From Gelidibacter sp. (lineage in GTDB: Bacteria; Bacteroidota; Bacteroidia; Flavobacteriales; Flavobacteriaceae): DNA of 64,000 nt. Shown here in pieces: positions 3-12,086 of this stretch (position 1 is the first letter of the stretch; each line of letters opens with the position of its first letter). The notes under the pieces are model-generated. The model made no database searches and had not been told where the DNA came from. It saw nothing but the letters and a program-made list of their open reading frames with translations. Location: positions 1,230 to 65,229 of the forward strand of contig NZ_JBDSLS010000108.1 of NCBI RefSeq assembly GCF_039916245.1, in the 5' to 3' direction. The translations under genes were made by a program, and so were the position numbers.

Positions 3-743
3 ATCGACAAGCTCAAAGATGTGAGTGAATTGCAGGAAGAGTTTTTGGATACCTTGCTCCGAAAGAAAGAACCCATTAAAAAAAGCAGACTATTTCAAGC
101 GGCTTCCATCGTTTATTATACTTCCGTAGAACAAAAATTTATTTTTAATCGTTTTGTTCAAGGAAAAATCATAAAAGCGCCAGAAGGTTCAGGTGCTGAA
201 TATATGACTAGCTGGAGCTTTTTTGATGTCGGCTGCAACCGACCATTTATCTGCTATATGTACTTCGATTTTGAAGGTTCTAATATTGAAAACAACAAAA
301 CACAAATTTACGAGGTACTAAAAAACTCAGCCGATAGAGACATGACCTTAGAGGTCATGGCGTATGGCATTGATAGAAAATTAGAGGATATCAAACCAAA
401 ACATATCAAAAGGGTTGATTTGGGACCTTTTCATAATGTTTATGCCAAGGACGAAAATCAAATTACCCATGCCATTTTAAAAAGTATTGCCAATAAAGAG
501 GTGCCATTGGAATCGTATGCATTGTCCTTAAGTATTGACGAAGTGACTTCTGGAAGTGAATTTTCTGAAGGCGGCTATTTCTCCAAACAGATCTTACAAA
601 AATGGAACGGACCCATCCAAAAAAGTTATGTCTTGGCGCCACATCGCATTATTCAGTTATTGTACAGTAAAACACCTGAAATCATGAATGGGTTGGCCAA
701 ACCACCGATTCAGATTGCGGATTTGAAGATAAGTAAAGAGTAG
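3..743 (+). CDS. Hypothetical protein, 5'-truncated by the window edge; first visible gene of the AAA operon
   Basis: Frame is open from position 3 (IDKLKDVSELQEE...), so the GTG at 21 is not the real start; stop TAG 741-743; no recognisable catalytic motif. Confidence 0.8.
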   Translation: MDKLKDVSELQEEFLDTLLRKKEPIKKSRLFQAASIVYYTSVEQKFIFNRFVQGKIIKAPEGSGAEYMTSWSFFDVGCNRPFICYMYFDFEGSNIENNKTQIYEVLKNSADRDMTLEVMAYGIDRKLEDIKPKHIKRVDLGPFHNVYAKDENQITHAILKSIANKEVPLESYALSLSIDEVTSGSEFSEGGYFSKQILQKWNGPIQKSYVLAPHRIIQLLYSKTPEIMNGLAKPPIQIADLKISKE

Positions 744-744
744 A

Positions 745-781
745 AGTCGGCAGTCAGCAGTCTTCAGTCTTCAGTCGGCAG
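745..781. repeat. Heptamer tract, left arm of four-helix-bundle element 1
   Basis: AGTCGGC AGTCAGC AGTCTTC AGTCTTC AGTCGGC AG; reverse complement of the tracts at 916-943 and 1343-1405. Confidence 0.9.
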
Positions 782-835
782 ATATTTCGATTTGAAATTG
801 TTTTAGTCATTAATATCAAAACTGAGGGCTGAAAA

Positions 836-915
836 ATGGATTATAAAGATGATAGTGAACTCTTAAGTTATATGGTGAAAAATTTTGGATTAAAATATTA
901 ACGGCAATCTAAAAG
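836..915 (+). pseudogene. Decayed copy of the 3' end and downstream spacer of the adjacent four-helix-bundle gene
   Basis: 860-901 reads LLSYMVKNFGLKY* versus LLNYMINNPDKFGLK* at 1268-1315; both are followed by GGCAAT(CT/TC)AAAAG and a heptamer arm. Confidence 0.65.
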
Positions 916-943
916 TAAGACTGAAGACTGCCAACTGAAGACT
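916..943. repeat. Heptamer tract, right arm R1, ending 6 nt before ATG 950
   Basis: TAAGACT GAAGACT GCCAACT GAAGACT then AAAAAC ATG. Confidence 0.9.
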
Positions 944-949
944 AAAAAC

Positions 950-1315
950 ATGGGTTTCAAAAAATTATTAGCATATCAGAGAGGATTTGATTTAGCCATG
1001 GATATTTTCCACGTGACAAAGGGTTTTCCGAAATCCGAACAATTTGTATTGACGTCTCAAATGGTAAGATCAAGCCGAGCTGTTTGCTCAGCAATTGCAG
1101 AAGCTTATAGAAAACGACAATATGAAAAGCATTTCAAAAGTAAATTATCTGATGCTGATAGTGAAAATTCTGAAACTCAATTGTGGTTAGATTTTGCTTT
1201 GGCTTGAGATTATATAGCTGAACCTAAGAGAATAGAATTACAACTAAAGAGTGAAGAAATTGGAAGACTCTTAAATTATATGATCAACAATCCCGATAAA
1301 TTCGGATTAAAATAA
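950..1315 (+). pseudogene. Four helix bundle protein (23S rRNA IVS-protein family) with an in-frame TGA at codon 86
   Basis: Family motifs LLAYQRGFDLA, FPKSEQFVLTSQMVRSSRAV, IAEAYRKR, SETQLWLDFA. After TGA 1205-1207 the same frame continues DYIAEPKRIELQLKSEEIGRLLNYMINNPDKFGLK to TAA 1313-1315. Confidence 0.85.
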
Positions 1316-1342
1316 TAATGGCAATTCAAAAGATAGAACACT

Positions 1343-1405
1343 ATAGACTACGGACTGCAGACTGCCAGCTGAGGACTGCCCGCTGAGGACTGCCAACTGA
1401 AGACT
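1343..1405. repeat. Heptamer tract, right arm R2 (9 units), ending 8 nt before the AAA ATG
   Basis: ATAGACT ACGGACT GCAGACT GCCAGCT GAGGACT GCCCGCT GAGGACT GCCAACT GAAGACT then TAAAAAAT ATG. Confidence 0.9.
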
Positions 1406-1413
1406 TAAAAAAT

Positions 1414-3372
1414 ATGCAACAAAACTCCACATTCCCCATAAAACAAAACGAACTCGATATGCTTCGTGATGAAGCAGCATCGTATCTCAAAAGCATCCAA
1501 TGGGAGCAAGGGCAACGTGCCAAAAGCAAAGACAAAAATGCTAAGGACGATTCAATTCTGCTTTATCTTTCTAGAGCCAATAACGGCTCAAATAATCCGG
1601 AAACGACTTCGGTATCTAAAACGATTTTGGAGCTTAAAAAACGTCTGTTGCCAGATTCTATTGCCATTCCTGTGTTACTCAATCAAACCTTATATGCCGT
1701 TCAGGAAGGTCTGACTTTGGGGATTTGGATCAAGGACAGTTATTATCATGCCTCAGGATTATCCAGTTTAAATGAGCGTAAAGCTTCTTTGGACAGCTTG
1801 GGCAAAAGAGAATATGAAAGCAAAATGCACACCGCTACAGCGTTCATGTTGTTTGCCGCGGCCTATAATATTTTACATAACCTTAAATCGTATGCGTCGG
1901 ATGATTTGAGCGTCATGAAACAGAAATTTGCTGGAATTCCTGAGGTGTCGTTATTAACGCCATTAAAAGGTGTGGCCTGTACTTTATTTTATTATGATAA
2001 GTATTTGGGACATCCAGATATTATCAAAAGCGATAAGGACGTGGCTGATTTTACAGTGGTGTTTTTTGAAGCGCTGATTGACGAAATCCAAATGCGAAAA
2101 TCTACTTTAGAATATCAAGAAACTATTTTGGATCGCACTTATAAACTGGAGCATTCAGATTTCGCGATTTCTGGATGGAATAACGCTTTCGCCGGTGCTG
2201 CCAAAAGTATAGAGTTCAACAAAATAAAGTTTGAGCAAATTGTCGGTAATAAAGACGCCAAACATTTTGCCCGGCGTTTAACGGAGCGAATGTTGAGTTA
2301 TGATTTTACGGCAAAAAAAAATCCGTTTCAGGAATTGGGCGGATTTATGCCAGTCTTTATGGGCTACGGCATCCCTGGAACAGGAAAAAGTATGCTCATT
2401 GCCGCTATTGCGACGCGATTAAAAGAGTATTGTGACCATTTAGAAATCCCGTTTTTATTTCATCCGATGCCAGATACCTTGATCTCCACTTTTCAAGGTG
2501 GTTCGGCAGAGAAAATGGTGGAGTGGATGAAACCCATGCAAGATCCCACAAAATTGATTTTTGCGCCGATTGATGATGCCGAAAACAATTTACAGGAGCG
2601 AACCGCTCAAGGGGTTTCTGCCGGTGTTAAAGAAGTCATTGGAGTGTTTTTGAGATATACGGAAGGCGCGTACGCAGTAAATTATGGCAACAGCGCCATC
2701 GGACTATTTACCAATTTACCAGAAATGCTGGATAAAGCCGTGATTTCGCGTGTGCAAGGACGATTCAAAATTGATGGTGCGCGAACGGAAAACGACTTTT
2801 TGGATCAGGATCATTTATGGTGGCGCAAGTTACAGGACACCATGCCAGATTTTATAAATATGAAAAATCCTGATCAATATAAATATCTTCAAGATCAAGG
2901 TTTGGCAAAAAGTATGGGAGAAATCTTGAAATCTGTGGATAAGCCTTCAGAAGAACGAGTCCATGCCGTTTATGATCGTGTTGAAAAGCAGTTTCAAACG
3001 AATGAACATCAGTTTTACGCCAATTTATATAAGGAAATCCAACAGGTTTTTCCATTCTTTTCATCGCGTGATGTCAGGAATATCCAATCGGCCATTTCAT
3101 TGCGTTTAACTGATTTTGATTTGGAAACGGCTTGGTTCGATAATCCGGAATTTTATTTTAAACAGACGTATGATACCAAATTCAACATGCTACAGGAATT
3201 GATGCGCGCTAATATGAAAGGTCTTAATTTTTCAGAAATAAGACGTCAGGAAGTGGTGCGTTATCTTGATAATGTGGCCACTATAGCCGACACCGATTTT
3301 AAACGTCAAGTCGATTCAAGAGTCAATCAGCTCAATATAGAATTGGAAGCACGAAAGAAGTTTGAGAAATAG
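1414..3372 (+). CDS. AAA+ ATPase (classic AAA clade-like) with a long uncharacterised N-terminal region
   Basis: Walker A GIPGTGKS (2368-2391), pore-loop-like LISTFQG, Walker B IFAPIDDAE, sensor-1 LFTN, SRH-like LDKAVISRVQGRF. Confidence 0.85.
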   Translation: MQQNSTFPIKQNELDMLRDEAASYLKSIQWEQGQRAKSKDKNAKDDSILLYLSRANNGSNNPETTSVSKTILELKKRLLPDSIAIPVLLNQTLYAVQEGLTLGIWIKDSYYHASGLSSLNERKASLDSLGKREYESKMHTATAFMLFAAAYNILHNLKSYASDDLSVMKQKFAGIPEVSLLTPLKGVACTLFYYDKYLGHPDIIKSDKDVADFTVVFFEALIDEIQMRKSTLEYQETILDRTYKLEHSDFAISGWNNAFAGAAKSIEFNKIKFEQIVGNKDAKHFARRLTERMLSYDFTAKKNPFQELGGFMPVFMGYGIPGTGKSMLIAAIATRLKEYCDHLEIPFLFHPMPDTLISTFQGGSAEKMVEWMKPMQDPTKLIFAPIDDAENNLQERTAQGVSAGVKEVIGVFLRYTEGAYAVNYGNSAIGLFTNLPEMLDKAVISRVQGRFKIDGARTENDFLDQDHLWWRKLQDTMPDFINMKNPDQYKYLQDQGLAKSMGEILKSVDKPSEERVHAVYDRVEKQFQTNEHQFYANLYKEIQQVFPFFSSRDVRNIQSAISLRLTDFDLETAWFDNPEFYFKQTYDTKFNMLQELMRANMKGLNFSEIRRQEVVRYLDNVATIADTDFKRQVDSRVNQLNIELEARKKFEK

Positions 3373-3417
3373 AGAAAAGAGGGAAGAAAATAGAGTATAG
3401 AAAATAGACAATAGAAG
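3369..3417. repeat. Heptamer tract (ATAGAnn family, 7 units) starting at the AAA stop codon
   Basis: ATAGAGA AAAGAGG GAAGAAA ATAGAGT ATAGAAA ATAGACA ATAGAAG. Confidence 0.8.
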
Positions 3418-3461
3418 TTCATCAATAAACATGAGAGACGAACTGAAATAAAGGCTAATAA

Positions 3462-3502
3462 ATCAGTGGAAATCAGCAGAATCAGCATCATCAGTGTTCT
3501 AT
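3462..3502. repeat. ATCAG 9/10-mer repeat element
   Basis: ATCAG at 3462, 3472, 3481, 3490; the end ATCAGCATCATCAGTGTTCTAT resembles 55280-55301 and 55391-55412. Confidence 0.7.
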
Positions 3503-3574
3503 GAAAATTAAACGAATTATTGTCTAATATGAATGAGTTCATTAAACCGATTAACACCACACAAACAACAAAGA

Positions 3575-4168
3575 ATGTCAGAAAACATAAAAAATATCGT
3601 CCATAAAACCCTTTCTAAAGCTTGGGCAACTTTGCTTCAGATTGATTATGATTATAAATTCAAAGACGGTACATGGAAACGCGTTTCAAGAGAAAGTTAT
3701 GATCGCGGAAATGGCACAGGCGTTTTGTTATATAATATTGAAAAGAGGACTGTTATTTTGACGAAACAATTCCGGATGCCCATTTACGAAACTAATCCTG
3801 ATGAAGCCATGTCACTTGAAGTCTGCGCTGGAGCCATTGATAAAAATCAATCCCCAGAATCGACCATCATTCGAGAAGTGGAAGAAGAAGTGGGGTATAA
3901 AATAAAAGAAGTTAAAAAGGTTCTGGAAGCTTATATGTCTCCTGGAGCATTAACAGAAAAAATGTATTTATTTATTGCGCCTTATACAGATGCTATGAAG
4001 ATTAATGAAGGTGGCGGTGTTGCGGGAGAACATGAAGAGATTGAAGTTTTGGAAATGCCGTTTTTAAAAGCTCTCAAAATGATGGAATCAGGAGACATTC
4101 GAGATGCTAAAACAATCATGTTGTTACAGTATGCACAAATGAATGATTTAATAAAGAATAAAGAATAA
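3575..4168 (+). CDS. nudK: Nudix hydrolase, GDP-mannose pyrophosphatase NudK/YffH-like
   Basis: Nudix box GAIDKNQSPESTIIREVEEEVG; RESYDRGNG, YMSPG and DAKTIMLLQY typical of NudK; ATG 3575 is preferred over 3533. Confidence 0.75.
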   Translation: MSENIKNIVHKTLSKAWATLLQIDYDYKFKDGTWKRVSRESYDRGNGTGVLLYNIEKRTVILTKQFRMPIYETNPDEAMSLEVCAGAIDKNQSPESTIIREVEEEVGYKIKEVKKVLEAYMSPGALTEKMYLFIAPYTDAMKINEGGGVAGEHEEIEVLEMPFLKALKMMESGDIRDAKTIMLLQYAQMNDLIKNKE

Positions 4169-4226
4169 AGAATAAAGAATAAAGAATAAAGAATAAAGAA
4201 TAAAGAATAAAGAATAAAGAATAAAG
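4150..4226. repeat. Perfect tandem repeat (AATAAAG)x11
   Basis: 77 bp counted directly; the nudK stop TAA 4166-4168 lies inside it; (TAGAAAC)x2 follows at 4234-4247. Confidence 0.95.
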
Positions 4227-4253
4227 TTTATTTTAGAAACTAGAAACCAGTTA

Positions 4254-5489
4254 ATGGAAAAGCTAAAAGCAGCACATTTATTTAGAGATGAACTCATCCC
4301 AATTAGTGGGAAGCTTGTTGAGCGTTACAATCAGTGCCTGAAAACTTTGGGAATTGCTGAAACAAAACTCTCGGGTTTTTCTATTGACGGAATTGGTTGG
4401 AGTCCTGAAATTGCTGAAGAAAAAAAGGAAATTCATTATCTAAATAATGGAGAGGCCAATCCAAACGGTATCATCATAACGCCATTGCAAAAGGGAAAAC
4501 CTGTGTATGTGCCTTTTCATACTTTTGATAGGGATATGATGCAGCACATCTTTAAAACCTATGAAGAAAAAATCAATGATATTACGAGAGACTGTGCGAT
4601 TTGCATTGATTTTGACCAATATATCGATGCCTTTTATGAGCCTTTAGATATTTTAAAATACAAGGATATTTCCATAAGTTTTAAACTGATCAACAATCTT
4701 GATAAGGAGCAAAAAAAGCAGTTTCAACTGATTGATAGCTTTAAACAGGGCAATAATTTTATTGATGAACACCTGCAGCAACAGTTGTTGGACTCGGCAA
4801 AAACCTATGGCGATTTAAGACACCGAAATTTAGAGCTCAATGAGCTTTATTTCTCAACGGATTCGTTTTACACCAGCGCATTTGGAGGTGTGTATCTATT
4901 ACGAGATTTCATAGCGCCAATTATGGTGTTCGAAGATGAGAAATGGCATAAGGAAGCCATAAAAGATACGTCTCATGAGGTTTTTATTTATCACATTTCG
5001 CAACCAGAATTGCTCGATAAATTACAAGACCATTTAATTATCGAATATGATTTAGAAGAAGTGGTAAAGACACCACGCTATGAACGTATCAAAAAATTCA
5101 TGTTTTCTCAGATTTTAAAGGACACCCAAAACCCAATAAAAGATATTTTGGATGACAAAGTGCTGTTCAAAGGCTATTTGAACAAAATGACGATTGAAGA
5201 CCGTAAGAAAGTCATGAGTGTTGAGCTTTATCTCGAAAAAATGGAAGTCAGCAACCAATATAAATTGGCAGATATTGTAGATGTCAAACTTTTTGAAGCC
5301 TTGCAACAACCGCATTCATCATTGAGTCCGAAGCATCAGGATTTGATTTGGAAATTATTGGTTAATATTTCGCCTTTGGATGTTTTATTCTTGTATTGGT
5401 ATGATAAAGAGCAGTTTTATAAAAATTATAAGGATTGGGATGAATCGTTGAAAGATTGGGTGATTGAAACCATCCGTAACAATATATAG
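4254..5489 (+). CDS. DUF6638-like protein of unknown function
   Basis: 411-aa ORF; LVERYNQCL, FSIDGIGWSPEI, YLNNGEANP and FYTSAFGGVYLLRD match my recollection of DUF6638 (not searched). Confidence 0.6.
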   Translation: MEKLKAAHLFRDELIPISGKLVERYNQCLKTLGIAETKLSGFSIDGIGWSPEIAEEKKEIHYLNNGEANPNGIIITPLQKGKPVYVPFHTFDRDMMQHIFKTYEEKINDITRDCAICIDFDQYIDAFYEPLDILKYKDISISFKLINNLDKEQKKQFQLIDSFKQGNNFIDEHLQQQLLDSAKTYGDLRHRNLELNELYFSTDSFYTSAFGGVYLLRDFIAPIMVFEDEKWHKEAIKDTSHEVFIYHISQPELLDKLQDHLIIEYDLEEVVKTPRYERIKKFMFSQILKDTQNPIKDILDDKVLFKGYLNKMTIEDRKKVMSVELYLEKMEVSNQYKLADIVDVKLFEALQQPHSSLSPKHQDLIWKLLVNISPLDVLFLYWYDKEQFYKNYKDWDESLKDWVIETIRNNI

Positions 5490-5545
5490 CTAAGAGCTAG
5501 AAGCATGAAGAATAGAGTTGGAAGATTGAAGCACGAAGCATGAAG
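5487..5545. repeat. Heptamer tract, left arm of four-helix-bundle element 2
   Basis: TAGCTAA GAGCTAG AAGCATG AAGAATA GAGTTGG AAGATTG AAGCACG AAGCATG AAG; begins with the upstream stop TAG. Confidence 0.85.
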
Positions 5546-5844
5546 TTTTATATCTTTATAATTTAGATATTAGAGAGTTGTAATTTGAAGGTTTGATTCT
5601 TTCGCAAAAACGCGAGGAATATTTTGCAACATAAAACTTTAGCAATAAAATAAGAAATGATGTACGTAATGACTCGGTTGAGTTTTTAATATTTCATCGA
5701 TAAAACGTATAAGAAATGTCATTTTTTGAAGTTTTGGAATATAAACTGAAGTTAAACTAAAGTGTTTTGCTTTCAGTTTCTTGCTTCAAACCTAAATATA
5801 AGTTTATGATTCAAATAGAAATAATTTTATTAAATAGCAATAGT

Positions 5845-5879
5845 CAAGCTTCGTGCTCCACGCTTCCAGCTTCCAACTT
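5845..5879. repeat. Heptamer tract, right arm R1 of element 2, 8 nt before ATG 5888
   Basis: CAAGCTT CGTGCTC CACGCTT CCAGCTT CCAACTT; reverse complement of the 5487-5545 consensus. Confidence 0.85.
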
Positions 5880-5887
5880 TTTTTATC

Positions 5888-6248
5888 ATGAAATTTAAAT
5901 TTGAAAATTTAATAATTTGGCAGAAAGCGATGGACTTGGGAGAGGAGATGAATGCTTTAGCATATAAGTTTCCAAAAGAAGAGCTATATAATCTTTCTTC
6001 CCAAGTTAGAAGAGCGTCAGATTCTATAGCATTGAATATTTCAGAAGGTTCAATTTTGCAATCAGATGCTGAATATAGAAAATTCTTAGGTTATGCAATA
6101 AGATCAACTGCCCGAAGTAGTGACGTGTTTGCATAAAGCGAAAAGAAGAAATTGTTTGAATGAAGACGATTTTCTTAAATTCTATAAAGCATGTTTTGAT
6201 TTAATGAATATGACCATTGCATTTAGGAACAGAATTAAAAAAGCATGA
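5888..6248 (+). pseudogene. Four helix bundle protein (IVS-protein family), frameshifted by one extra C
   Basis: FKFENLIIWQKAMDL, FPKEELYNLSSQVRRASDSIALNISEGS. Removing one C from GCCCGAA (6110-6116) restores EVVTCLHKAKRRNCLNEDDFLKFYKACFDLMNMTIAFRNRIKKA to TGA 6246-6248. Confidence 0.85.
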
Positions 6249-6421
6249 AGCACGAATTTGGATGCGCGAAGTAATACTTTTTTTACCACAATAATTGTTA
6301 AACTTCGCGCTTCATGCTCCCAACTTCAAACATAAATATGATAACTTATGATTGCATTAGAAATAGAATTAATCATCTGCAAGTTCAAAGCTTCGGGCTT
6401 CGAGCTTCAAACTTCCAGCTT
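6241..6421. repeat. Heptamer tracts after element-2 gene: left-type 6241-6271, right-type 6299-6333 and 6380-6421
   Basis: AAGCATG AAGCACG AATTTGG ATGCGCG AAG / TAAACTT CGCGCTT CATGCTC CCAACTT / AAAGCTT CGGGCTT CGAGCTT CAAACTT CCAGCTT then TTACAC ATG (6428). Confidence 0.85.
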
Positions 6422-6427
6422 TTACAC

Positions 6428-6946
6428 ATGACACTAGAAATTATCGTTTTTATCGGCTCAATTTTATTCGGAATTCTTCTGTATTGGAGAGAGTCAAACG
6501 GCAACGGACTGTATCGTTTTTTTAATAAAATGATGTATTCCAAAAAGCTTCAGATGTCGCCTAATGATCCTACAGGTTTTCTATATCAACAAAAATTCTT
6601 GCTGCGGTTGGTATTTGTTGGAATGATATTTCTGGTTGGAATTTTGATTGCGAGATTCCTGATTCCAATTGATGTTGCTACGATTTCAGTATTTGCTTCG
6701 AGTATTGTCGGTACGCTTTTGGGAACTTATATTGGCGGATTTATTTTAAAGTCTGAAAAAATAATTGACGCGCAAAGTGATTCTATAGAGCGAAAATTGG
6801 ATGGTGCCATTGATCAAGGTCGTGATTTTATTAAGGATATTTCAACACGACAACCAAAAGTTGTAGAAGAAGCAGAAAAGGAAGTTCTCAAAGATCCGAA
6901 TCAAAAAAGTGCGCGAGAACGCTTGAAGGATAAAGGATTGATGTGA
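6428..6946 (+). CDS. Hypothetical membrane protein (about 3-4 TM helices, charged C-terminal tail)
   Basis: The ORF-track start 6314 runs through repeat DNA; ATG 6428 starts the hydrophobic segment MTLEIIVFIGSILFGILLYW. Confidence 0.75.
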   Translation: MTLEIIVFIGSILFGILLYWRESNGNGLYRFFNKMMYSKKLQMSPNDPTGFLYQQKFLLRLVFVGMIFLVGILIARFLIPIDVATISVFASSIVGTLLGTYIGGFILKSEKIIDAQSDSIERKLDGAIDQGRDFIKDISTRQPKVVEEAEKEVLKDPNQKSARERLKDKGLM

Positions 6947-6992
6947 TTTTTGAGTAGTGAATAACGATTGAAGATTAACGATTTTTGAATTT
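6944..6992. repeat. Degenerate heptamer tract (nGAnTnn) starting at the stop codon
   Basis: TGATTTT TGAGTAG TGAATAA CGATTGA AGATTAA CGATTTT TGAATTT. Confidence 0.65.
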
Positions 6993-7038
6993 CTGATTAT
7001 ATCAACTTTACGACAAACAACACACAACAGAAAAGGCC

Positions 7039-8736
7039 ATGCTAAAAAAATATTGGAATAGAGGAAGTAGACAAAAAACCATAACCATCATTGGAGTAGT
7101 GGTTTTAATAGCATTATTGTTTTTCCTTCGTGATGATTATCAACCCTTTTTATTATGGATCAGGAAATTCATTTTTGTAATTCTGGTGATAGGTTTGGTA
7201 TTGTTTTTCGGGTTGCGAAGTTTTCGAAACTCGGTCGGCGTTGGACGGCGCATTGGTATTTTGGCACTTTTAGTGTTGTTTTTTGGATCGCTTTACTACA
7301 TTGGTTGGCACTTTAAGATGTATGATTATATGAAAACCTACAATGTTTTCAATCATTTGAATAAAGTTCAAATCAACGAATTGCCGCTTACACAAAACGA
7401 ACGCATCCAACCATTGCGCAATATTTTCTCTATGGCCAACGAATCGGTTGGAGAAACGAAGGACGTGTCGTTGCCGCATTTGGTAAGAGTCGATGGCGAG
7501 AACAGATGGACGATGGCTATCCAGCCGTCTGAAAAATATACCATGCAGCAAATCAGTGAGAATACTGAAGAGATCTTTTCAGTTTCCAGTACCTCGCCAT
7601 TTCCAAGGTTTTCCAGTGAAAATCGCATTCCTGTGACCTTTTCTATTGGCGAATCTTTAAAGTTTAGTAGAAATACTTATCATGCCGTGGTACAACGTTT
7701 CAATATTTTTCAGTTGTTTACCATGGAGCCTGGAGATACGTTTTACATGAAAAACGATTCAGGAAAATGGGTAGAAGTGGTGAGTTTGATCAAATGGAAG
7801 GGCTTCTTTTTTCCATATCCAACTTTTGGAGGTGTGATGGTCATTGATAGTGGGAAACACGACTTCAATGATTATGTGGAACGTATCTTGATCGGGAAAG
7901 GCACATATATCAGTCCAGAGGAAATGAAAAATCATCCGTTTTTGACCAAGCAGAATACGCTCTCAGAAAAAGTGTCACGCTTACAAGCGGAATCTTTAAA
8001 GTTTTTAGGCGGATTTACGGATCCATTGCCATGGAAAATGCAAACGGCCGTAAAAATTCCCGATATGCCAGACGATCAAAATGAACAGCCTTTTGTAACC
8101 GATTTCAATTTTGAGGGCGTCGATGCTAAAGCTTATAATGGTTTGTACCATTGGTTCGGATTGGAGCCCATTGGCGATGAGCGCACAAGTTTGGCCTATA
8201 GCGTATTTGTGCCTGCTGATGGCACCGATAAATTATATTATTATGATCATGCGGCCAGGAAACAAGGTTACGCCGGAGTTTCCGCAATGCCTTTAAAAAT
8301 CATCGAATCCCGTAAGGAGGTGGATTGGTCGGTAAATAAACCTGTTGAATTTAGACCATATATTAAAGATATCGCGGGTAGAAGACGGATGTTTTTCTTA
8401 GGCACCGTTTCAGCAGTAAAAGAATATTCAAAAAAGTTTGATGGATCGGCCACACCAGATTTAGCACTGATTGATAGTGAATATCGTGATGTCATCTGGA
8501 TTGATGTCAAACATCCAAGTCAATGGGATAAAACCGTCTATGATCAATTGAACGAAGCGTGGAGAGCCAGTGAAGGCATTGGTTATTATTATGATGAAGT
8601 CAAAACGCCATCTGACTTGGATATGATGCAAAAAGAAATGGATTCAATTCAGTCCATTCCCAAAGTGAATGCGAATACAGATCAAATAAAAAAATTACAA
8701 CGTCAGATTGATTCTTTAAAATCGGTTGAGAATTGA
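7039..8736 (+). CDS. Hypothetical membrane-anchored protein (3 N-terminal TM helices, large soluble domain)
   Basis: 565-aa ORF; three hydrophobic stretches in the first 90 aa; short helical C-terminus. Confidence 0.8.
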   Translation: MLKKYWNRGSRQKTITIIGVVVLIALLFFLRDDYQPFLLWIRKFIFVILVIGLVLFFGLRSFRNSVGVGRRIGILALLVLFFGSLYYIGWHFKMYDYMKTYNVFNHLNKVQINELPLTQNERIQPLRNIFSMANESVGETKDVSLPHLVRVDGENRWTMAIQPSEKYTMQQISENTEEIFSVSSTSPFPRFSSENRIPVTFSIGESLKFSRNTYHAVVQRFNIFQLFTMEPGDTFYMKNDSGKWVEVVSLIKWKGFFFPYPTFGGVMVIDSGKHDFNDYVERILIGKGTYISPEEMKNHPFLTKQNTLSEKVSRLQAESLKFLGGFTDPLPWKMQTAVKIPDMPDDQNEQPFVTDFNFEGVDAKAYNGLYHWFGLEPIGDERTSLAYSVFVPADGTDKLYYYDHAARKQGYAGVSAMPLKIIESRKEVDWSVNKPVEFRPYIKDIAGRRRMFFLGTVSAVKEYSKKFDGSATPDLALIDSEYRDVIWIDVKHPSQWDKTVYDQLNEAWRASEGIGYYYDEVKTPSDLDMMQKEMDSIQSIPKVNANTDQIKKLQRQIDSLKSVEN

Positions 8737-8766: not shown

Positions 8767-8876
8767 CGTCATTCCAACATTCTCGTTTTTGTCATTCCGG
8801 TGTTTTATTTTTGTCATTCCGACGAAGGAGGAATCCCATACTCTTTATGAGATGTCTCCCTGCGTTCGACATGACA
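8767..8876. repeat. REP-like GTCATTCC cluster with a convergent doublet
   Basis: GTCATTCC at 8768, 8791, 8813; full unit TGTCATTCCGACGAAGGAGGAATC 8812-8835; inverted partner GAGATGTCTCCCTGCGTTCGACATGACA 8849-8876. Confidence 0.8.
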
Positions 8877-8890
8877 AAAACATAGTGTTA

Positions 8891-10366
8891 TTATCCAAAT
8901 CGCTTCTGTAAATCCGCAACTACCATCTCAATCTGGTCGTTTTTGTCTTTTCGTTCCAATAGTATTGGTGGCGATTGCCGTACTTGACAATCAGCAATGG
9001 CACATCGTTCGCAGGTTACGCCAACATCCTGGGTTTTTATTTTAGGATCTTTGAGGAAAGAAACTCTACGTTGTAGTTGTTTATTAATCAAGAGTCCGAT
9101 GCTAATGCTTCGGTATTGATTCTCTTTAAATGGATCTTTTGTTGCCGAGGATAAAACCAGGTATTTCATATCGTCATCAGGATAATTCGAAATTTGCAAG
9201 TCAAAAACATGATCTTCTTTGGTCTTACTGATGGTTTTTAAAACTTTTAAAGAAATCCAACGTCGGCAATAATGTTCATTGGTTTCATTACCATGTGGCG
9301 AATGCTGCTGCGATAAGTGTAATTCTTTTTTAAGATGAAAGCGTTCACTTCCTGCACGATGCGTAAACCGTAAGAAAAATAAATCCTGAATATTAAATTC
9401 TTTGGGCAGTACGTTGGTCAGGCGTTGATAAAATGATTCTGGAGAGGCGTTGAAAGCTGCGATGATTTCTAACAACAAATGCTTATCAAAAATCTCTTTT
9501 TCAAATAGCGTGGTTAATTGTTCTGAAATAGTCTTTTTTGGCAAAATGAGTGCACCGGCAAAATACGAGGCGTAAAAATTATTCAAAACCTGATCGAAAT
9601 TTTCAAATTTAATCCATGAAAAGGTATAGAGGCGCTCTTTATATTCTAAATAATTATAAGCAATTTCTTTAGCATAAATAAAAGTACGCTGAGCATCGTC
9701 CATTTGACTGGCTAGTAAAAGGGTCTTCGTTTTTGGTACAAACACGGAACGAAGCATATCCAATGTCTGATGTTTGTCCAATTCAGTCTCATTAAATACA
9801 TAGCCATATTCCTCAATAAGGATTTCCTTCAATTCGTCAGAACTGATCGGTTTTTCCAAATCGATTTGATAGGATTTTGCAAACTTTATCACCGCTTGTT
9901 CAATGTCTTCAAAATAATTATGATTGGCTTCTTGAAAGGATCGTAAGGAGGCCAAATAAAAGCTTTCTCTACTGAAATTATAGTTCTGTGCAATTTCGAT
10001 AATGGTACTTATAAAGGCATTGACCTTTGCCGGCGCATTCGAAACGATATCAATGAGCGTGCTTTCTTGAATCCCGAAAAGTTCCAAAGGAATTTCTTTT
10101 AGAATTTTAGATTTTAAGATATCGCCAATGGGCGAAAGGTTTTTGTCCAATTTCAAAGAGACCATCTGGTCGTAAGGCACTTCCAGTTTTTCAGAAAGAA
10201 TGGCTATTTTATCGGGTTTTGGATATTTTTTTCCCTTTTCAATTTCGTTTAAATACGACTTTGATAATCCTGATAATTTAGATAGACCAAAAAGCGAAAG
10301 ACTTCTCTCTGTCCTGAGCTGCTTTAATTTAAGTCCAAAAATAAGTTTGATATATTCTTCTTCCAT
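8891..10366 (-). CDS. XRE-family HTH regulator with an IrrE/ImmA-like domain (RamB/ScfR-like), probable aceBA regulator
   Basis: N-terminal HTH (LKQLRTERSLSLFGLSKLSGLSKSYLNEIEKG); C-terminal CERC..DC motif; divergent from aceBA. Confidence 0.8.
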   Translation of the reverse strand: MEEEYIKLIFGLKLKQLRTERSLSLFGLSKLSGLSKSYLNEIEKGKKYPKPDKIAILSEKLEVPYDQMVSLKLDKNLSPIGDILKSKILKEIPLELFGIQESTLIDIVSNAPAKVNAFISTIIEIAQNYNFSRESFYLASLRSFQEANHNYFEDIEQAVIKFAKSYQIDLEKPISSDELKEILIEEYGYVFNETELDKHQTLDMLRSVFVPKTKTLLLASQMDDAQRTFIYAKEIAYNYLEYKERLYTFSWIKFENFDQVLNNFYASYFAGALILPKKTISEQLTTLFEKEIFDKHLLLEIIAAFNASPESFYQRLTNVLPKEFNIQDLFFLRFTHRAGSERFHLKKELHLSQQHSPHGNETNEHYCRRWISLKVLKTISKTKEDHVFDLQISNYPDDDMKYLVLSSATKDPFKENQYRSISIGLLINKQLQRRVSFLKDPKIKTQDVGVTCERCAIADCQVRQSPPILLERKDKNDQIEMVVADLQKRFG

Positions 10367-10371
10367 GCTGA

Positions 10372-10436
10372 CAAATATAATTGTTTTTCGCGAATATCAA
10401 TTTTTAGCGAATTGAATTATTTAGCGAACGTTCGCT
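10372..10436. promoter_or_regulatory. Divergent promoter/operator: -7 element for the regulator and three TTnGCGAA boxes
   Basis: TATATTTG on the minus strand 10372-10379; TTCGCGAA 10387, TTAGCGAA 10404, TTAGCGAA 10421; perfect palindrome AGCGAACGTTCGCT 10423-10436. Confidence 0.6.
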
Positions 10437-10487
10437 TGTTTTTTAAAAAAGATTTTTATATCATTGTTGTATCAAAACATCAACATC

Positions 10488-12086
10488 ATGAAAAACAACA
10501 TTTTAAGCGTACCAAAAACTCAATTCTCAGGGGTTGTAGAAAACTACTATCCTGAAATATTAACCGATGAAGCCCTCGAATTTTTATCAGTTTTACACGA
10601 AAAATTTAATCAAGAGCGTCTTGAATTACTAACAGCTAGAGAAAAACAACAAAAGCTATTTGATAAAGGCGCGTTCCCGGAATTCCCTGCTGAAACTAAA
10701 AACATCAGAGAAGGGAATTGGGTGGCTGGCGCAATTCCGAAGGACTTATTAGATAGACGTGTGGAGATTACCGGGCCTGTTGACCGAAAAATGGTCATCA
10801 ATGCCCTGAATTCTGGAGCTAAAACTTTTATGGCCGATTTGGAAGACAGTAATGCACCAACTTGGGCCAATGCGATTGAAGGGCAACAGAATCTTATTGA
10901 TGCCAACAACAAAACCATTTCTCTCTACGATGCTCAAAGGAGGAAATCCTATAAGCTTAATGACGAAACGGCGGTCTTAATGGTGCGTCCAAGAGGTTTA
11001 CATCTCAATGAGCGCCATATGCAGATCAACAAAGAAGAGATGTCTGGTAGTTTAGTGGATTTTGGATTGTATGTTTTTCATAATACCAAAACTTTGTTAG
11101 AAAACCATTCGGCACCGTATTTCTATTTACCAAAATTGGAGCACTATTTGGAAGCACGCTGGTGGAATCAAGTTTTCGATTTCGCAGAAAATTATATGGA
11201 AGTGCCAATCGGGACTTTTAAAGCCACAGTTTTGATAGAAACCATTACGGCAAGTTTTCAGTTGGACGAAATTATCTATGAGCTTAAAGATCATATTGTC
11301 GGACTAAACTGCGGTCGTTGGGATTATATTTTCTCATATATCAAAAAATTCAGAAATCATGACAATTTTGTGGTCCCAAATCGTGATCAAGTAACGATGA
11401 CCACCCCATTTATGGCGGCTTATTCAAAATTGGTCATTCAGCGTTGCCATAAACGAAGGATCCATGCCATTGGTGGGATGGCGGCTCAAATTCCGATCAA
11501 GAACAATCCAGAAGCCAACAATGCGGCCTTGGAAAAGGTCCGCTTAGATAAGGAGCGCGAAGTCAAAAATGGTCACGATGGCACTTGGGTAGCACATCCT
11601 GATTTGGTAGCGGTGGCGATGAGCGAATTTGACAAACGCATGCCAACGGCCAATCAGTTTCACGTGACCAGAGATGATGTCGTGATTACAAAAGAAAATT
11701 TAGTTGAGCTGCCTTTAGGTACAGTAACCGAAGAAGGCGTGCGGAAAAACATCAACGTCGGCATTTTATATACTGAGGCCTGGTTAAGAGGTCACGGTGC
11801 CGTAGCCTTATACAATTTGATGGAAGATGCGGCGACCGCAGAAATTTCAAGAACTCAAGTTTGGCAATGGCTGAAGAATGAAGTCGTTTTGGAAGATGGA
11901 CGAAAATTCACAAGAGCGCTTTACGATACTGTTTTTGATGATGAAGTTGAAAAACTGATCAAGGAATTTGGAAAAGTAGACATGAAAAATACAAAATTCA
12001 AATTAGCGATAGAGTTGTTCAACACTTTGGTAACCAACAAGGAATTCGAAGAGTTTTTGACGTTGCCAGCCTATCAATACCTATAA
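10488..12086 (+). CDS. aceB: Malate synthase A
   Basis: RRVEITGP, FMADLED, VRPRG, LNCGRWDYIFS, GGMAAQIP, DGTWVAHP, MEDAATAEISR; ATG 10488 preferred over TTG 10464. Confidence 0.95.
   Translation: MKNNILSVPKTQFSGVVENYYPEILTDEALEFLSVLHEKFNQERLELLTAREKQQKLFDKGAFPEFPAETKNIREGNWVAGAIPKDLLDRRVEITGPVDRKMVINALNSGAKTFMADLEDSNAPTWANAIEGQQNLIDANNKTISLYDAQRRKSYKLNDETAVLMVRPRGLHLNERHMQINKEEMSGSLVDFGLYVFHNTKTLLENHSAPYFYLPKLEHYLEARWWNQVFDFAENYMEVPIGTFKATVLIETITASFQLDEIIYELKDHIVGLNCGRWDYIFSYIKKFRNHDNFVVPNRDQVTMTTPFMAAYSKLVIQRCHKRRIHAIGGMAAQIPIKNNPEANNAALEKVRLDKEREVKNGHDGTWVAHPDLVAVAMSEFDKRMPTANQFHVTRDDVVITKENLVELPLGTVTEEGVRKNINVGILYTEAWLRGHGAVALYNLMEDAATAEISRTQVWQWLKNEVVLEDGRKFTRALYDTVFDDEVEKLIKEFGKVDMKNTKFKLAIELFNTLVTNKEFEEFLTLPAYQYL

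What the first reader, a model, noticed from the sequence alone, without database searches (positions are those of the whole stretch)
3..8736. Uncharacterised operon around a stand-alone AAA unfoldase-like ATPase, a DUF6638-like protein and two membrane proteins
Seen: five co-oriented genes of unknown function plus a Nudix hydrolase, with no clear intrinsic terminator until the REP-like cluster at 8767. The order is ORF1 (truncated), AAA ATPase, nudK-like, DUF6638-like, a 3-4 TM protein, and a 3-TM protein with a large soluble domain. I can assign no pathway. From memory, not a search, ORF1, the AAA and DUF6638 have co-located homologues in Rhodobacteraceae. If true, this is a module conserved across phyla. 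Inference: an AAA motor, two soluble partners and two membrane components suggest an undescribed membrane-complex remodelling, envelope-stress or defence system.
Basis: partly seen in the sequence, partly recalled or inferred. Interest (0 to 1): 0.8.

Follow-up and report, generated by a model that had tools for sequence, protein, structure and literature searches.

The report
Undescribed conserved AAA ATPase membrane operon
This marine flavobacterium carries a six-gene set kept in the same order in several bacterial phyla (a long helical protein, two proteins of unknown type, a protein-pulling ATPase and two membrane proteins); no paper describes it, so its function is inferred, and the Nudix gene inside it is only a passenger.

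Summary
The functional unit, however, differs from the one described.

**Core set.** There are six genes: a 447-aa coiled-coil protein (ORF0, upstream of the window), ORF1, a classical-clade AAA ATPase, DUF6638, a small 3-TM protein and a 565-aa 3-TM protein.
- All six are collinear in 74 of 80 Flavobacteriaceae loci; the other six contigs are too short.
- The same order holds in a second family of the class at 25-34% identity, and on a contig of unknown taxon at about 28%.

**Proteobacterial form.** In Rhizobiaceae and in 52 of 52 long-enough metagenome contigs, the four soluble genes recur in the same order. There a different membrane protein (DUF2333) follows them. A Vibrio megaplasmid carries the four soluble genes alone.

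**Passengers.** The NudK-like gene and the two decayed four-helix-bundle genes are passengers. The AAA/DUF6638 junction is a slot that holds unrelated genes in different lineages.

**Matches to known systems.** Nothing matches a described system in Pfam, NCBIfam, PADLOC, PHROGs, PDB or the paper library. The DUF6638 model is confident (pLDDT 93) and has no structural neighbour.

**Best reading (about 0.35).** This is a membrane-anchored AAA+ remodelling machine acting on the coiled-coil protein, probably stress-linked. Defence is unlikely.

The scan has already reported this module in at least nine other genomes.

The parts
3..743 (+). ORF1, C-terminal 246 codons (full gene 353 aa, starting 320 nt before the window). 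Core gene 2 of the module. Core gene 1 (ORF0, the 447-aa coiled coil) lies wholly upstream of the window.
   Evidence: Collinear in 77 of 80 Flavobacteriaceae loci. Aligns with proteobacterial and L102 homologues, with invariant ESGF, HPK..RR..LGPF and PH..YQ motifs. No Pfam, NCBIfam or PDB match.
744..1413 (+). Spacer with inverted heptamer-repeat arms (745-781, 917-949, 1347-1410) and a decayed four-helix-bundle (23S_rRNA_IVP/TIGR02436) gene at 950-1312, which has an in-frame TGA at 1205-1207. Passenger.
   Evidence: The element is present in only 14 of 74 non-Gelidibacter loci. The repeats occur on many contigs of the genome.
1414..3372 (+). AAA ATPase of 652 aa. It has a unique roughly 260-aa N-domain, one classical-clade AAA module (about 265-455) and a roughly 200-aa C-region that carries the lid motif. 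Core gene 3.
   Evidence: PF00004. Best PDB sequence matches are VAT, Vps4 and CdvC, at only E about 1e-4. The family has 125 representatives at E<1e-30, matching end to end.
3533..4168 (+). Nudix hydrolase of the YffH/AdpP (NudK-like) family. Passenger in the AAA/DUF6638 slot.
   Evidence: Present in 57 of 78 Flavobacteriaceae loci, at a median 55% identity against 70-89% for the core genes. Absent from L100, L102 and all proteobacterial loci.
4150..4226 (.). (AATAAAG)n tandem repeat, about 11 units, running from the Nudix stop codon into the spacer before DUF6638.
4254..5489 (+). DUF6638 protein of 411 aa. Core gene 4.
   Evidence: PF20343. AlphaFold2 model with pLDDT 93.3 and pTM 0.87. No structural neighbour in PDB (best E 1.6) or in BFVD. 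The profile search against PDB sequences found nothing.
5490..6427 (+). Spacer with heptamer-repeat arms and a frameshifted four-helix-bundle gene remnant (5888-6136 and onward). Passenger.
   Evidence: Present in 11 of 74 non-Gelidibacter loci.
6428..6946 (+). TM1, about 172 aa from the conserved start (the ORF opens at 6314). It has 3 TM segments and a charged C-terminal tail of about 65 aa, predicted to be cytoplasmic. Core gene 5 of the Bacteroidota form.
   Evidence: Proteins of 190-195 aa with 3-4 hydropathy peaks and a charged tail sit at the same position in L100 and L102.
7039..8736 (+). TM2, 565 aa, with 3 N-terminal TM segments and a roughly 480-aa domain predicted (by the positive-inside rule) to face the periplasm. 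Core gene 6 of the Bacteroidota form.
   Evidence: Identity is 69-86% across genera, 29% in L100 and 33% in L102. No Pfam or PDB match. Not related to DUF2333.
8767..8880 (.). GTCATTCC-type REP-like repeat cluster between the end of TM2 and the convergent HTH/M78 regulator gene. It marks the downstream limit of the run.
   Evidence: The gene at 8891-10366 is on the minus strand.

Best explanation
The window holds the local copy of a conserved, undescribed operon-type module. In Bacteroidota it has six genes: ORF0 (coiled coil, 447 aa), ORF1, the AAA ATPase, DUF6638, TM1 and TM2.

**Shown**
- The six genes are inherited together, in one order, over deep divergence.
- In compact relatives they abut or overlap.
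- The ATPase keeps every motif of a substrate-threading classical AAA protein.
- The four soluble genes recur in Proteobacteria with a different membrane partner.

**Inferred mechanism**
- The ATPase forms a ring at the inner face of the cytoplasmic membrane. It pulls a polypeptide through its [FY]-Q-G pore loops.
- Its main client is ORF0. ORF0 is the most conserved member, all-helical, with a Trp-rich tip and a disordered tail ending in a conserved D-D-L-L-S.
- ORF0 would form a membrane-bound scaffold that the motor assembles, remodels or takes apart. This is the Vps4/ESCRT-III logic without any homology of the partners.
- ORF1 and DUF6638 would be dedicated cofactors.
- TM1 and TM2 (DUF2333 in Proteobacteria) would anchor the machine and link it to the periplasm.
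- The RpoH1-type promoter in the alphaproteobacterial versions suggests a stress-response role.

The Nudix gene, the four-helix-bundle genes and the repeats are passengers.
For: **Collinearity**
- All six core genes are present and in order in 74 of 80 Flavobacteriaceae loci from more than 25 named genera. The flanking genes vary between these loci.
- The same order holds in G126, a different family, at 25-34% identity.
- It also holds on contig L102 (genes of 413, 375, 661, 445, 195 and 546 aa, abutting or overlapping).

**Compact spacing**
- In the tightest loci, ORF1 to AAA is 2 bp, AAA overlaps DUF6638 by 1 nt, and TM1 overlaps TM2 by 4 nt.

**Proteobacteria**
- The order ORF0-ORF1-AAA-DUF6638-DUF2333 is seen in S. 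meliloti, in Pararhizobium and in 52 of 52 long-enough metagenome contigs.
- DUF6638 and DUF2333 often overlap by 8 nt (lower quartile; median gap 13 bp).

**Conservation across genera**
- Median identity is 89% for ORF0, 85% for AAA, 76% for TM2, 70% each for ORF1 and DUF6638, and 57% for TM1. The neighbouring ABC-F protein stands at 93%.

**Motor motifs in 36 diverse members**
- Walker A is kept (G322, G324 and K325 invariant; P321 in 32 of 36).
- Pore loop 1 is [FY]QG (Q in 33 of 36, G in 35 of 36).
- Sensor-1 N434 is present in 36 of 36.
- Arg finger R446 is present in 36 of 36.
- The lid motif is F[TS]SRDxRNI.

**ORF0**
- The model is all-helical with 70-120-residue helices.

**Membrane link**
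- TM1 and TM2 have 3 TM segments each.
- An SPFH/Band_7 gene is inserted between ORF0 and ORF1 in four proteobacterial contigs.

**Stress link**
- A site fitting the published RpoH1 consensus CTTGAA-N15-16-CCTATAT (PMC4843759) lies upstream of ORF0 in 32 of 57 proteobacterial loci.
- Controls gave 0.7 expected in shuffles, 3 of 912 coding windows, and 3 of 533 upstream regions of other ORFs on the same contigs.
Against: - No experiment and no RNA data support this. Co-transcription in this genome is untested.
- The operon here is broken up by spacers of 670 and 938 bp.
- The ORF0 model is only moderately confident (pLDDT 64, pTM 0.43).
  - Its Foldseek matches are non-specific (no E<1e-3, TM 0.36 or less).
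  - They are led by ClyA-type toxins, F-BAR domains and Smc coiled coils, with no ESCRT-III or PspA in the top 50.
- No MIT domain, Vps4_C, Snf7 or PspA_IM30 match was found.
- Walker B reads D-D rather than D-E in 32 of 36 members, so the ATPase rate may be low.
- That ORF0 is the client, rather than an adaptor, is a guess from its conservation.
- The Vibrio megaplasmid copy has no adjacent membrane gene.
- The RpoH1-type site resembles the rhizobial housekeeping promoter (my recollection), and the 57 loci are related to one another.
- The Flavobacteriaceae promoter region shares no such motif.
Confidence: 0.35

Rival explanations
1. Protein quality control or extraction. The AAA ring, held at the membrane by TM1/TM2 (or DUF2333), would pull misfolded or mislocalised proteins out of the membrane or out of aggregates, as Cdc48, Msp1 or the AAA part of FtsH do. 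ORF0, ORF1 and DUF6638 would be adaptors, not clients.
For: - The AAA motifs and pore loops are those of the classical clade.
- The best PDB sequence matches include VAT (a Cdc48-like ATPase) and the i-AAA protease ATPase domain.
- An RpoH1-type promoter is found in the alphaproteobacterial versions.
- An SPFH gene is inserted in four loci. SPFH proteins partner with FtsH, which I state from established knowledge.
Against: - There is no protease domain or partner protease in any of about 165 loci.
- Three dedicated soluble partners, all strongly conserved, are more than a simple adaptor set would need.
- ORF0 is conserved more strongly than the motor itself.
Confidence: 0.25
2. Envelope biogenesis or transport. 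The large periplasm-facing domains of TM2 or DUF2333 would be the working end. The cytoplasmic AAA set would power the assembly, export or turnover of an envelope component.
For: - TM2 and DUF2333 both carry large domains predicted to face the periplasm.
- DUF2333 lies next to a cell-wall amidase and a Nudix gene in Pseudomonas fluorescens (PMC5256989).
- A ChvI (envelope-stress regulator) binding fragment maps inside SMc02733 (PMC3687685). By gene numbering this probably lies in the S. meliloti copy of the module, but I could not verify the mapping.
Against: - TM2 and DUF2333 are unrelated, so the periplasmic part is the least conserved element of the system.
- The Vibrio copy has no adjacent membrane gene.
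- Neither domain has a recognisable enzyme or transporter fold by sequence.
Confidence: 0.15
3. Anti-phage defence system built around an AAA ATPase.
For: - Distribution is patchy: 3 of 300 Bacteroidota genomes and 47 of 150 Flavobacteriaceae genera.
- A copy sits on Vibrio megaplasmids.
- There are weak IetA/IteA matches to the AAA core.
- Toxin-antitoxin pairs and small nucleases sit inside the operon in some genomes.
Against: - No PADLOC model matches any partner. The IetA match covers only the P-loop core, at E 5.5e-6.
- The chromosomal context is stable within families (ABC-F upstream in 54 of 74 non-Gelidibacter loci; tdk and fhs flanks in the three named Rhizobiaceae loci examined).
- Sequence conservation is as high as for housekeeping proteins.
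- No effector domain is present.
- IMG/VR holds no family member.
- The inserted toxin-antitoxin and nuclease genes vary between genomes, so they are passengers.
Confidence: 0.08
4. The genes are only neighbours with no common function.
For: In this genome the spacers are long and filled with repeats.
Against: The order is kept over 25-30% identity and across phyla while the flanks change. Stop and start codons overlap in compact loci.
Confidence: 0.02

Closest known systems
Vps4 / CdvC with ESCRT-III (and bacterial PspA/Vipp1 as ESCRT-III relatives)
   Same: - Both have a single-module classical-clade AAA ATPase with a substrate-binding N-domain.
- That ATPase is encoded next to a helical, probably membrane-binding protein.
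- Vps4 and CdvC are among the best PDB and NCBIfam sequence matches of the AAA core.
   Different: - No MIT domain or Vps4_C domain is present.
- The CdvC model scores 16.6 bits against a cut-off of 650.
- ORF0 is 360-447 aa, has no Snf7 or PspA_IM30 match, and shows no ESCRT-III or PspA fold match in the top 50.
- There are three further obligate partners (ORF1, DUF6638 and a membrane protein) with no counterpart in ESCRT systems.
- Walker B is D-D.
Cdc48/VAT/p97-type and FtsH-type AAA unfoldases
   Same: - Walker A, a pore loop 1 with an aromatic residue, sensor 1, the second region of homology with Arg fingers, and a lid motif at the xSGADI position.
- VAT is the top PDB sequence match.
   Different: - There is one AAA module, not two.
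- There is no protease domain.
- The N- and C-terminal regions are unique.
- E-values to these proteins are only about 1e-4.
Proteobacterial 'hypothetical - hypothetical - ATP-binding protein - DUF6638 - DUF2333' clusters (e.g. S. meliloti CP090106 LZK74_29000 to LZK74_28970)
   Same: The four soluble proteins are homologous (ORF1 at E 5e-10; AAA at 28% identity; DUF6638 at 24%; ORF0 aligns at about 24% with 13 invariant columns) and stand in the same order.
   Different: - The membrane partner is DUF2333 (2 TM segments) rather than TM1 plus TM2, and the two are not detectably related.
- ORF0 is about 85 aa shorter and lacks the Trp-rich insert and the acidic tail.
- These clusters are themselves unstudied.
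IetAS / IteA anti-phage AAA systems (PADLOC, NCBIfam)
   Same: There is a weak match of the AAA P-loop core (PDLC04232 at E 5.5e-6; NF042959 at 15.2 bits).
   Different: The score is far below the cut-off (15.2 against 510). No IetS-type protease partner is present, and the match covers only the generic AAA core.

Membership tests
Classical AAA ATPase (Pfam PF00004) | Whole-protein score above the Pfam gathering cut-off | tested here: met
   36.1 bits against 21.2, residues 318-453.
Classical AAA ATPase (Pfam PF00004) | Walker A GxxGxGK[ST] | tested here: met
   GIPGTGKS at 319-326. G322, G324 and K325 are invariant in 36 diverse members.
Classical AAA ATPase (Pfam PF00004) | Walker B hhhhDE with a catalytic glutamate | tested here: inconclusive
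   The motif reads hhhh-D387-D388-A-E390. Position 388 is D in 32 and E in 4 of 36 members. The acidic pair is kept but the usual Glu is Asp. Whether it still hydrolyses ATP was not tested.
Classical AAA ATPase (Pfam PF00004) | Sensor-1 Asn and second region of homology with Arg finger(s) | tested here: met
   N434 is present in 36 of 36, R446 in 36 of 36, and R450 is R or K in 34 of 36.
Classical AAA ATPase (Pfam PF00004) | Pore loop 1: aromatic residue, hydrophobic residue, Gly | tested here: met
   The loop is [FY]-Q-G at 360-362. It is aromatic in 27 of 36 members, Q in 33 of 36 and G in 35 of 36. The middle residue is Gln, not a hydrophobic residue.
Vps4 / CdvC | N-terminal MIT domain and C-terminal Vps4_C helix; NCBIfam CdvC equivalog score | tested here: not met
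   No MIT or Vps4_C Pfam match. NF041006 scores 16.6 bits against a cut-off of 650.
Vps4 / CdvC | ESCRT-III (Snf7) or PspA/IM30 partner encoded alongside | tested here: not met
   ORF0 has no Snf7 or PspA_IM30 match at E up to 10 or up to 1 (member 1). No ESCRT-III or PspA structure appears among the top 50 Foldseek matches. The ORF0 model is only of moderate confidence.
DUF6638 (Pfam PF20343) | Score above the gathering cut-off | tested here: met
   119.1 bits against 27, in two stretches (18-233 and a C-terminal stretch).
NudK (GDP-mannose pyrophosphatase) / YffH-AdpP Nudix subfamily | NCBIfam cut-offs | tested here: inconclusive
   The subfamily model TIGR00052 is met (159.2 bits against 79.55). 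The NudK equivalog NF011585 is not met (199.2 against 234). The substrate is therefore unassigned.
DUF2333 (Pfam PF10095), for TM2 | HMM or profile-profile similarity | tested here: not met
   No Pfam match at E up to 10. hhalign of the TM2 family against the DUF2333 family gives probability 0.7%. No PF10095 match anywhere in this genome.
TelA / toxic anion resistance (Pfam PF05816), for ORF0 | HMM match | tested here: not met
   TelA is not among the member-1 matches nor among the 25 most-matched of the 79 families matched at E up to 1 by 60 ORF0 homologues; the other 54 families were not listed. No TelA match in single-protein scans either.
Known anti-phage defence systems (PADLOC-DB 2.0) | Matches to the system's signature proteins | tested here: not met
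   There are only weak IetA matches to the AAA core (E 5.5e-6) and a PDC-S07 match to the Nudix fold. ORF1, DUF6638, TM1 and TM2 have no match; ORF0 was not scanned against PADLOC.

The most novel reading that the evidence does not exclude
A phylum-spanning bacterial membrane-remodelling or membrane-repair machine that works like ESCRT-III/Vps4 but is built from unrelated parts. A classical AAA motor would recycle a polymer of the coiled-coil ORF0 at the inner membrane. Two cofactors would assist it, at least one of them (DUF6638) with a fold that has no solved relative. A lineage-specific membrane anchor would complete the machine, and in Alphaproteobacteria it would be switched on by the heat-shock sigma factor.
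Probability: 0.3. Interest if true: 0.85.

Novelty: categorically new. Interest (0 to 1): 0.7.

Why it matters
Five of the six core proteins belong to no characterised family, yet they are conserved as strongly as housekeeping proteins. They travel together from marine Flavobacteria to rhizobia and Vibrio megaplasmids. One of them, DUF6638, gives a very confident model with no structural neighbour in the PDB or in BFVD.

AAA+ machines with dedicated partners usually mark a distinct cell-biological process. An unassigned machine of this kind, present in the genetic model Sinorhizobium meliloti, is directly testable by deletion, localisation and substrate trapping. The alphaproteobacterial promoter evidence suggests which conditions to try first: heat and envelope stress.

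For annotation, the result shows which genes belong together. It also shows that the Nudix gene, the four-helix-bundle genes, the toxin-antitoxin pairs and the small nucleases found inside the operon are passengers.

Tried and rejected
1. **TM2 as a divergent DUF2333.** Rejected: hhalign probability 0.7%.
2. **ORF0 as TelA-like.** No TelA match among the member-1 matches or the 25 most-matched families for 60 homologues.
3. **ORF0 as ESCRT-III/PspA-like.** No HMM match. Foldseek on a moderate-confidence model gave only generic long-helix matches.
4. **Profile searches of ORF0, ORF1, TM2 and DUF6638 against PDB sequences.** Nothing significant. The ORF1 match to Csm6 at E 0.005 covers 80 residues without the HEPN motif and is taken as chance.
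5. **PADLOC and PHROGs.** Nothing beyond the generic AAA core.
6. **IMG/VR scan.** Only generic AAA matches.
7. **A profile search in the 5.8-billion-protein collection with distant AAA members.** It was swamped by generic AAA words and returned only the query.
8. **Cluster look-ups of 20 distant representatives.** These gave almost no organism names.
9. **Literature searches.**
   - DUF6638, PF20343 and PF10095 returned no papers.
   - DUF2333 returned one paper, which mentions it only in passing.
   - SMc02729 to SMc02734 returned one gel-shift screen that lists SMc02733.
10. **Strict sigma-32 and CIRCE patterns upstream of ORF0.** No matches. Only scoring against the published RpoH1 consensus gave a signal, and only in proteobacterial loci.
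11. **A shared regulon motif in this genome.**
    - The conserved Flavobacteriaceae upstream element is unique in the genome.
    - It is not found upstream of the few heat-shock genes I could locate by peptide motifs.
12. **Rfam on the leader region.** Nothing.

Full report
**1. What is in the window**

The window is G000:C108:1230-65229 of a 3.48-Mb draft genome with 310 contigs. By its closest AAA homologues (92-94% identical) the genome belongs to Gelidibacter, Flavobacteriaceae.

On the + strand, positions 3-8736 hold these genes:
- **ORF1**: 3' end at 3-743.
- **AAA ATPase**: 1414-3372, 652 aa, PF00004.
- **Nudix hydrolase**: 3533-4168. It meets the YffH/AdpP subfamily model TIGR00052 but falls below the NudK equivalog cut-off.
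- **DUF6638**: 4254-5489, PF20343, 119 bits.
- **Small membrane protein (TM1)**: ORF from 6314. The start conserved in relatives is at 6428.
- **565-aa membrane protein (TM2)**: 7039-8736.

A convergent HTH/peptidase-M78 regulator gene (8891-10366, minus strand) and a GTCATTCC-type repeat cluster (8767-8880) close the run.

Two spacers are long: 744-1413 and 5490-6427. Each carries inverted arrays of 7-nt repeats around a decayed four-helix-bundle (23S_rRNA_IVP/TIGR02436) gene. The first of these genes has an in-frame TGA and the second is frameshifted.

An (AATAAAG)n tract of about 11 units runs from the Nudix stop codon into the next spacer.

**2. The run starts further upstream**
- The contig reaches 1229 nt beyond the window. 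ORF1 is 353 aa in full.
- Before ORF1 lies the 3' part of a coiled-coil gene, ORF0.
- The 5' part of ORF0 and its promoter region sit at the end of contig C13. The last 40 codons of C13 repeat the first codons of C108, so the gene is intact and 447 aa long, as in Gelidibacter relatives.
- In complete relatives a divergent metallo-beta-lactamase-fold gene precedes ORF0. ORF0 is therefore the first gene of the co-oriented run.

**3. Conservation of the gene set in Flavobacteriaceae**

A scan of 185,579 species genomes returned 527 relatives of the AAA protein. The best 80 loci, all Flavobacteriaceae from more than 25 named genera, were fetched with 10-kb flanks.

- ORF0, ORF1, AAA, DUF6638, TM1 and TM2 are present in that order in 74 of the 80 loci. 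The other six contigs are too short.
- The flanks vary across the 74 non-Gelidibacter loci. The ABC-F gene lies upstream in 54, the beta-lactamase-fold gene in 19, and the downstream regulator and malate synthase essentially only in Gelidibacter.

| Protein | Median identity to the Gelidibacter proteins, across the other genera |
|---|---|
| ORF0 | 89% |
| AAA | 85% |
| TM2 | 76% |
| ORF1 | 70% |
| DUF6638 | 70% |
| TM1 | 57% |
| ABC-F neighbour (for comparison) | 93% |
| Nudix | 55% |

In the most compact loci the genes abut or overlap: ORF1 to AAA is 2 bp, AAA overlaps DUF6638 by 1 nt, and TM1 overlaps TM2 by 4 nt.

**4. Passengers**
- The Nudix gene is present in 57 of 78 loci that hold both AAA and DUF6638.
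- It is absent from every distant version.
- Where it is missing, the same slot is empty or holds something else:
  - an unrelated membrane protein of about 210 aa;
  - an amidohydrolase-SnoaL protein;
  - a DUF1963 protein;
  - a GIY-YIG nuclease.
- In proteobacterial relatives the same junction holds ParE/HTH or PIN toxin-antitoxin pairs, DUF559 endonucleases or an IS element.
- The four-helix-bundle genes occur in only 11-14 of the 74 non-Gelidibacter loci.

The Nudix gene, the four-helix-bundle genes and the repeats therefore do not belong to the module.

**5. Deep conservation**
- **Family size.** The AAA family is small and distinct. It has 438 representatives at E<=1e-3 and 125 at E<=1e-30 among 1.84 billion cluster representatives. 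Nearly all are about 650 aa and match end to end.
- **Bacteroidota sample.** Among 300 sampled Bacteroidota genomes only three carry it.
- **Flavobacteriaceae sample.** DUF6638 is found in 47 of 150 genera and in none of 14 control genomes.
- **Second family (G126).** All six genes are found in order at 25-34% identity. This includes a 190-aa 3-TM protein at the TM1 position.
- **Contig L102 (unknown taxon).** The genes are 413, 375, 661, 445 (DUF6638), 195 and 546 aa, abutting or overlapping. Its ORF0 and ORF1 equivalents share the invariant columns of the family alignments.

**6. Other phyla**
- A tblastn search of DUF6638 against plasmid-labelled records found chromosome-size Sinorhizobium and Shinella replicons, a Rhizobium replicon and Vibrio megaplasmids.
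- In S. meliloti and Pararhizobium the order is as follows:
  - coiled coil (362 aa);
  - ORF1 homologue (382 aa, E 5e-10);
  - AAA (638 aa, 28% identical);
  - DUF6638;
  - DUF2333.
- The 882-kb Vibrio parahaemolyticus plasmid has the four soluble genes followed by mfd. Its DUF2333 gene lies about 350 kb away.
- A metagenome scan with proteobacterial-type AAA sequences gave 80 further contigs. The five-gene order is kept in all 52 that are long enough. DUF6638 and DUF2333 often overlap by 8 nt (lower quartile; median gap 13 bp).
- TM2 and DUF2333 are not detectably related (hhalign probability 0.7%).

The invariant core is thus four soluble proteins, with a lineage-specific membrane partner.

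**7. The proteins**

*AAA (36 diverse members)*
- Walker A: G322, G324 and K325 invariant; P321 in 32 of 36.
- Pore loop 1 is [FY]-Q-G.
- Walker B is D-D (E in 4 of 36).
- Sensor-1 Asn is invariant.
- Arg finger R446 is invariant.
- The lid motif F[TS]SRDxRNI sits where classical AAA proteins have xSGADI.
- Together these features mark a substrate-threading classical-clade AAA protein.
- The roughly 260-aa N-region and the insert before the lid match nothing.
- The nearest solved proteins by sequence are VAT, Vps4 and CdvC, at only E about 1e-4.

*ORF0*
- The AlphaFold2 model is all-helical, with helices of up to 120 residues. Its confidence is moderate (pLDDT 63.8, pTM 0.43).
- Foldseek gave no match at E<1e-3. 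The leading matches were ClyA-family toxins, F-BAR domains and Smc coiled coils. This shows only that ORF0 is a long helical bundle.
- The Flavobacteriaceae form has a Trp-rich insert (TWWNNLWGRK) and a disordered acidic tail ending in D-D-L-L-S.

*DUF6638*
- The model is very confident (pLDDT 93.3, pTM 0.87), built from an alignment of 128 sequences.
- It has no neighbour in the PDB (best E 1.6, TM 0.09) or in BFVD.

*ORF1, TM1 and TM2*
- None has a Pfam, NCBIfam, PADLOC, PHROG or PDB-sequence match.
- By hydropathy and the positive-inside rule, TM1 is N-out/C-in with a charged cytoplasmic tail.
- By the same rule, the large domains of TM2 and DUF2333 face the periplasm. This is an inference.

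**8. Regulation**

*Flavobacteriaceae*
- The 130 nt before ORF0 are conserved far above background:
  - TGTAACAATT;
  - a 25-nt block, TTTTTTAACGAAATTGCT, at 90% or more;
  - AAATTGTTCAAC.
- The element is unique in this genome. This points to a dedicated control region rather than a shared regulon.

*Proteobacterial loci*
- A site fitting the published S. meliloti RpoH1 consensus (CTTGAA-N15-16-CCTATAT; PMC4843759 citing Barnett et al. 2012) lies 60-173 nt before ORF0 in 32 of 57 loci. The required match was at least 4 of 6 plus at least 6 of 7.
- Controls were 0.7 expected in shuffles, 3 of 912 coding windows, and 3 of 533 upstream regions of other ORFs on the same contigs.
- Caveats: the loci are related to one another, and the consensus resembles the rhizobial housekeeping promoter.
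- An SPFH/Band_7 gene sits between ORF0 and ORF1 in four contigs.
- A ChvI gel-shift screen lists a fragment inside SMc02733 (PMC3687685). By gene numbering this probably falls in the module, but I could not verify the mapping.

**9. Reading**

*Shown:* this is a co-inherited, operon-type module around a threading-competent AAA ATPase. It spans at least Bacteroidota, Alphaproteobacteria and Gammaproteobacteria. It has a swappable membrane partner and matches no described system. No paper in the library mentions DUF6638.

*Inferred:* the motor works at the membrane on the coiled-coil ORF0, which serves as scaffold and client. ORF1 and DUF6638 are cofactors, and the role is stress-linked. I put this at 0.35.

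*Rivals:*
- protein extraction or quality control, with ORF0 as adaptor: 0.25;
- envelope biogenesis or transport: 0.15;
- defence: 0.08. This rival is disfavoured by the stable synteny, the housekeeping-level conservation, the lack of an effector and the absence of the family from viral contigs.

It works like Vps4/ESCRT-III at most by analogy. The membership tests for that family fail.

**10. Earlier notes of this scan**

At least nine earlier findings on other genomes describe the same module and reach the same general reading. They add claims that I did not test: copies in Patescibacteria, in an archaeon and in a giant phage.

I tested that on independent loci and partly confirmed it.

- the confident DUF6638 model without a structural neighbour;
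- the catalogue of passengers in the AAA/DUF6638 slot;
- the conserved, genome-unique control region in Flavobacteriaceae;
- the promoter statistics.

Noticed in passing
window 950-1312 and 5888-6240: Two decayed four-helix-bundle (23S rRNA intervening-sequence protein family) genes. Each is flanked by inverted arrays of a different 7-nt repeat. The first has an in-frame TGA at 1205-1207, where relatives continue in frame. A third 3'-end remnant lies at 836-915.
   Followed up: partly
window 4150-4226: (AATAAAG)n tandem array of about 11 units. It starts inside the last codons of the Nudix gene and runs into the spacer before DUF6638. Heptamer tracts begin at several stop codons of this run.
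   Followed up: no
L016 6560-6770 (and G000:C13:4590-4719): The 130 nt upstream of ORF0 are conserved at 90% or more across Flavobacteriaceae genera. The conserved blocks are TTGTAACAATT, TTTTTTAACGAAATTGCT and AAATTGTTCAAC. The first and last blocks are near-inverted copies about 85 nt apart. The element occurs once in this genome and matches no Rfam family.
   Followed up: partly
L142, L143, L156, L157 (between ORF0 and ORF1): A 293-301-aa ORF is inserted inside the proteobacterial form of the operon in four metagenome contigs; the L156 copy (301 aa) is SPFH/Band_7 (PF01145).
   Followed up: no
AAA/DUF6638 junction in L106, L117, L119, L127, L162, L180, L103, L030, L066, L091: The same intergenic junction holds unrelated small genes in different lineages. 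These include ParE/HTH and PIN toxin-antitoxin pairs, DUF559 and GIY-YIG nucleases, an IS4-family element, an amidohydrolase and a DUF1963 protein. It is a recurrent insertion slot inside a conserved operon.
   Followed up: partly
G000:C13 end and C108 start (just upstream of the window): The two contig ends overlap by about 120 nt inside ORF0. The assembly break is therefore an artefact and the contigs can be joined.
   Followed up: yes
window 8891-12086: A RamB-like HTH plus peptidase-M78 regulator (ScfR C-terminal domain) is transcribed divergently from malate synthase A. This looks like a glyoxylate-shunt control unit and is unrelated to the module.
   Followed up: no
L104 (Vibrio parahaemolyticus plasmid NZ_CP062152, 141-147 kb): An 882-kb Vibrio plasmid carries the four soluble genes of the module, directly followed by its own mfd gene. 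A DUF2333 gene lies 350 kb away on the same replicon.
   Followed up: partly
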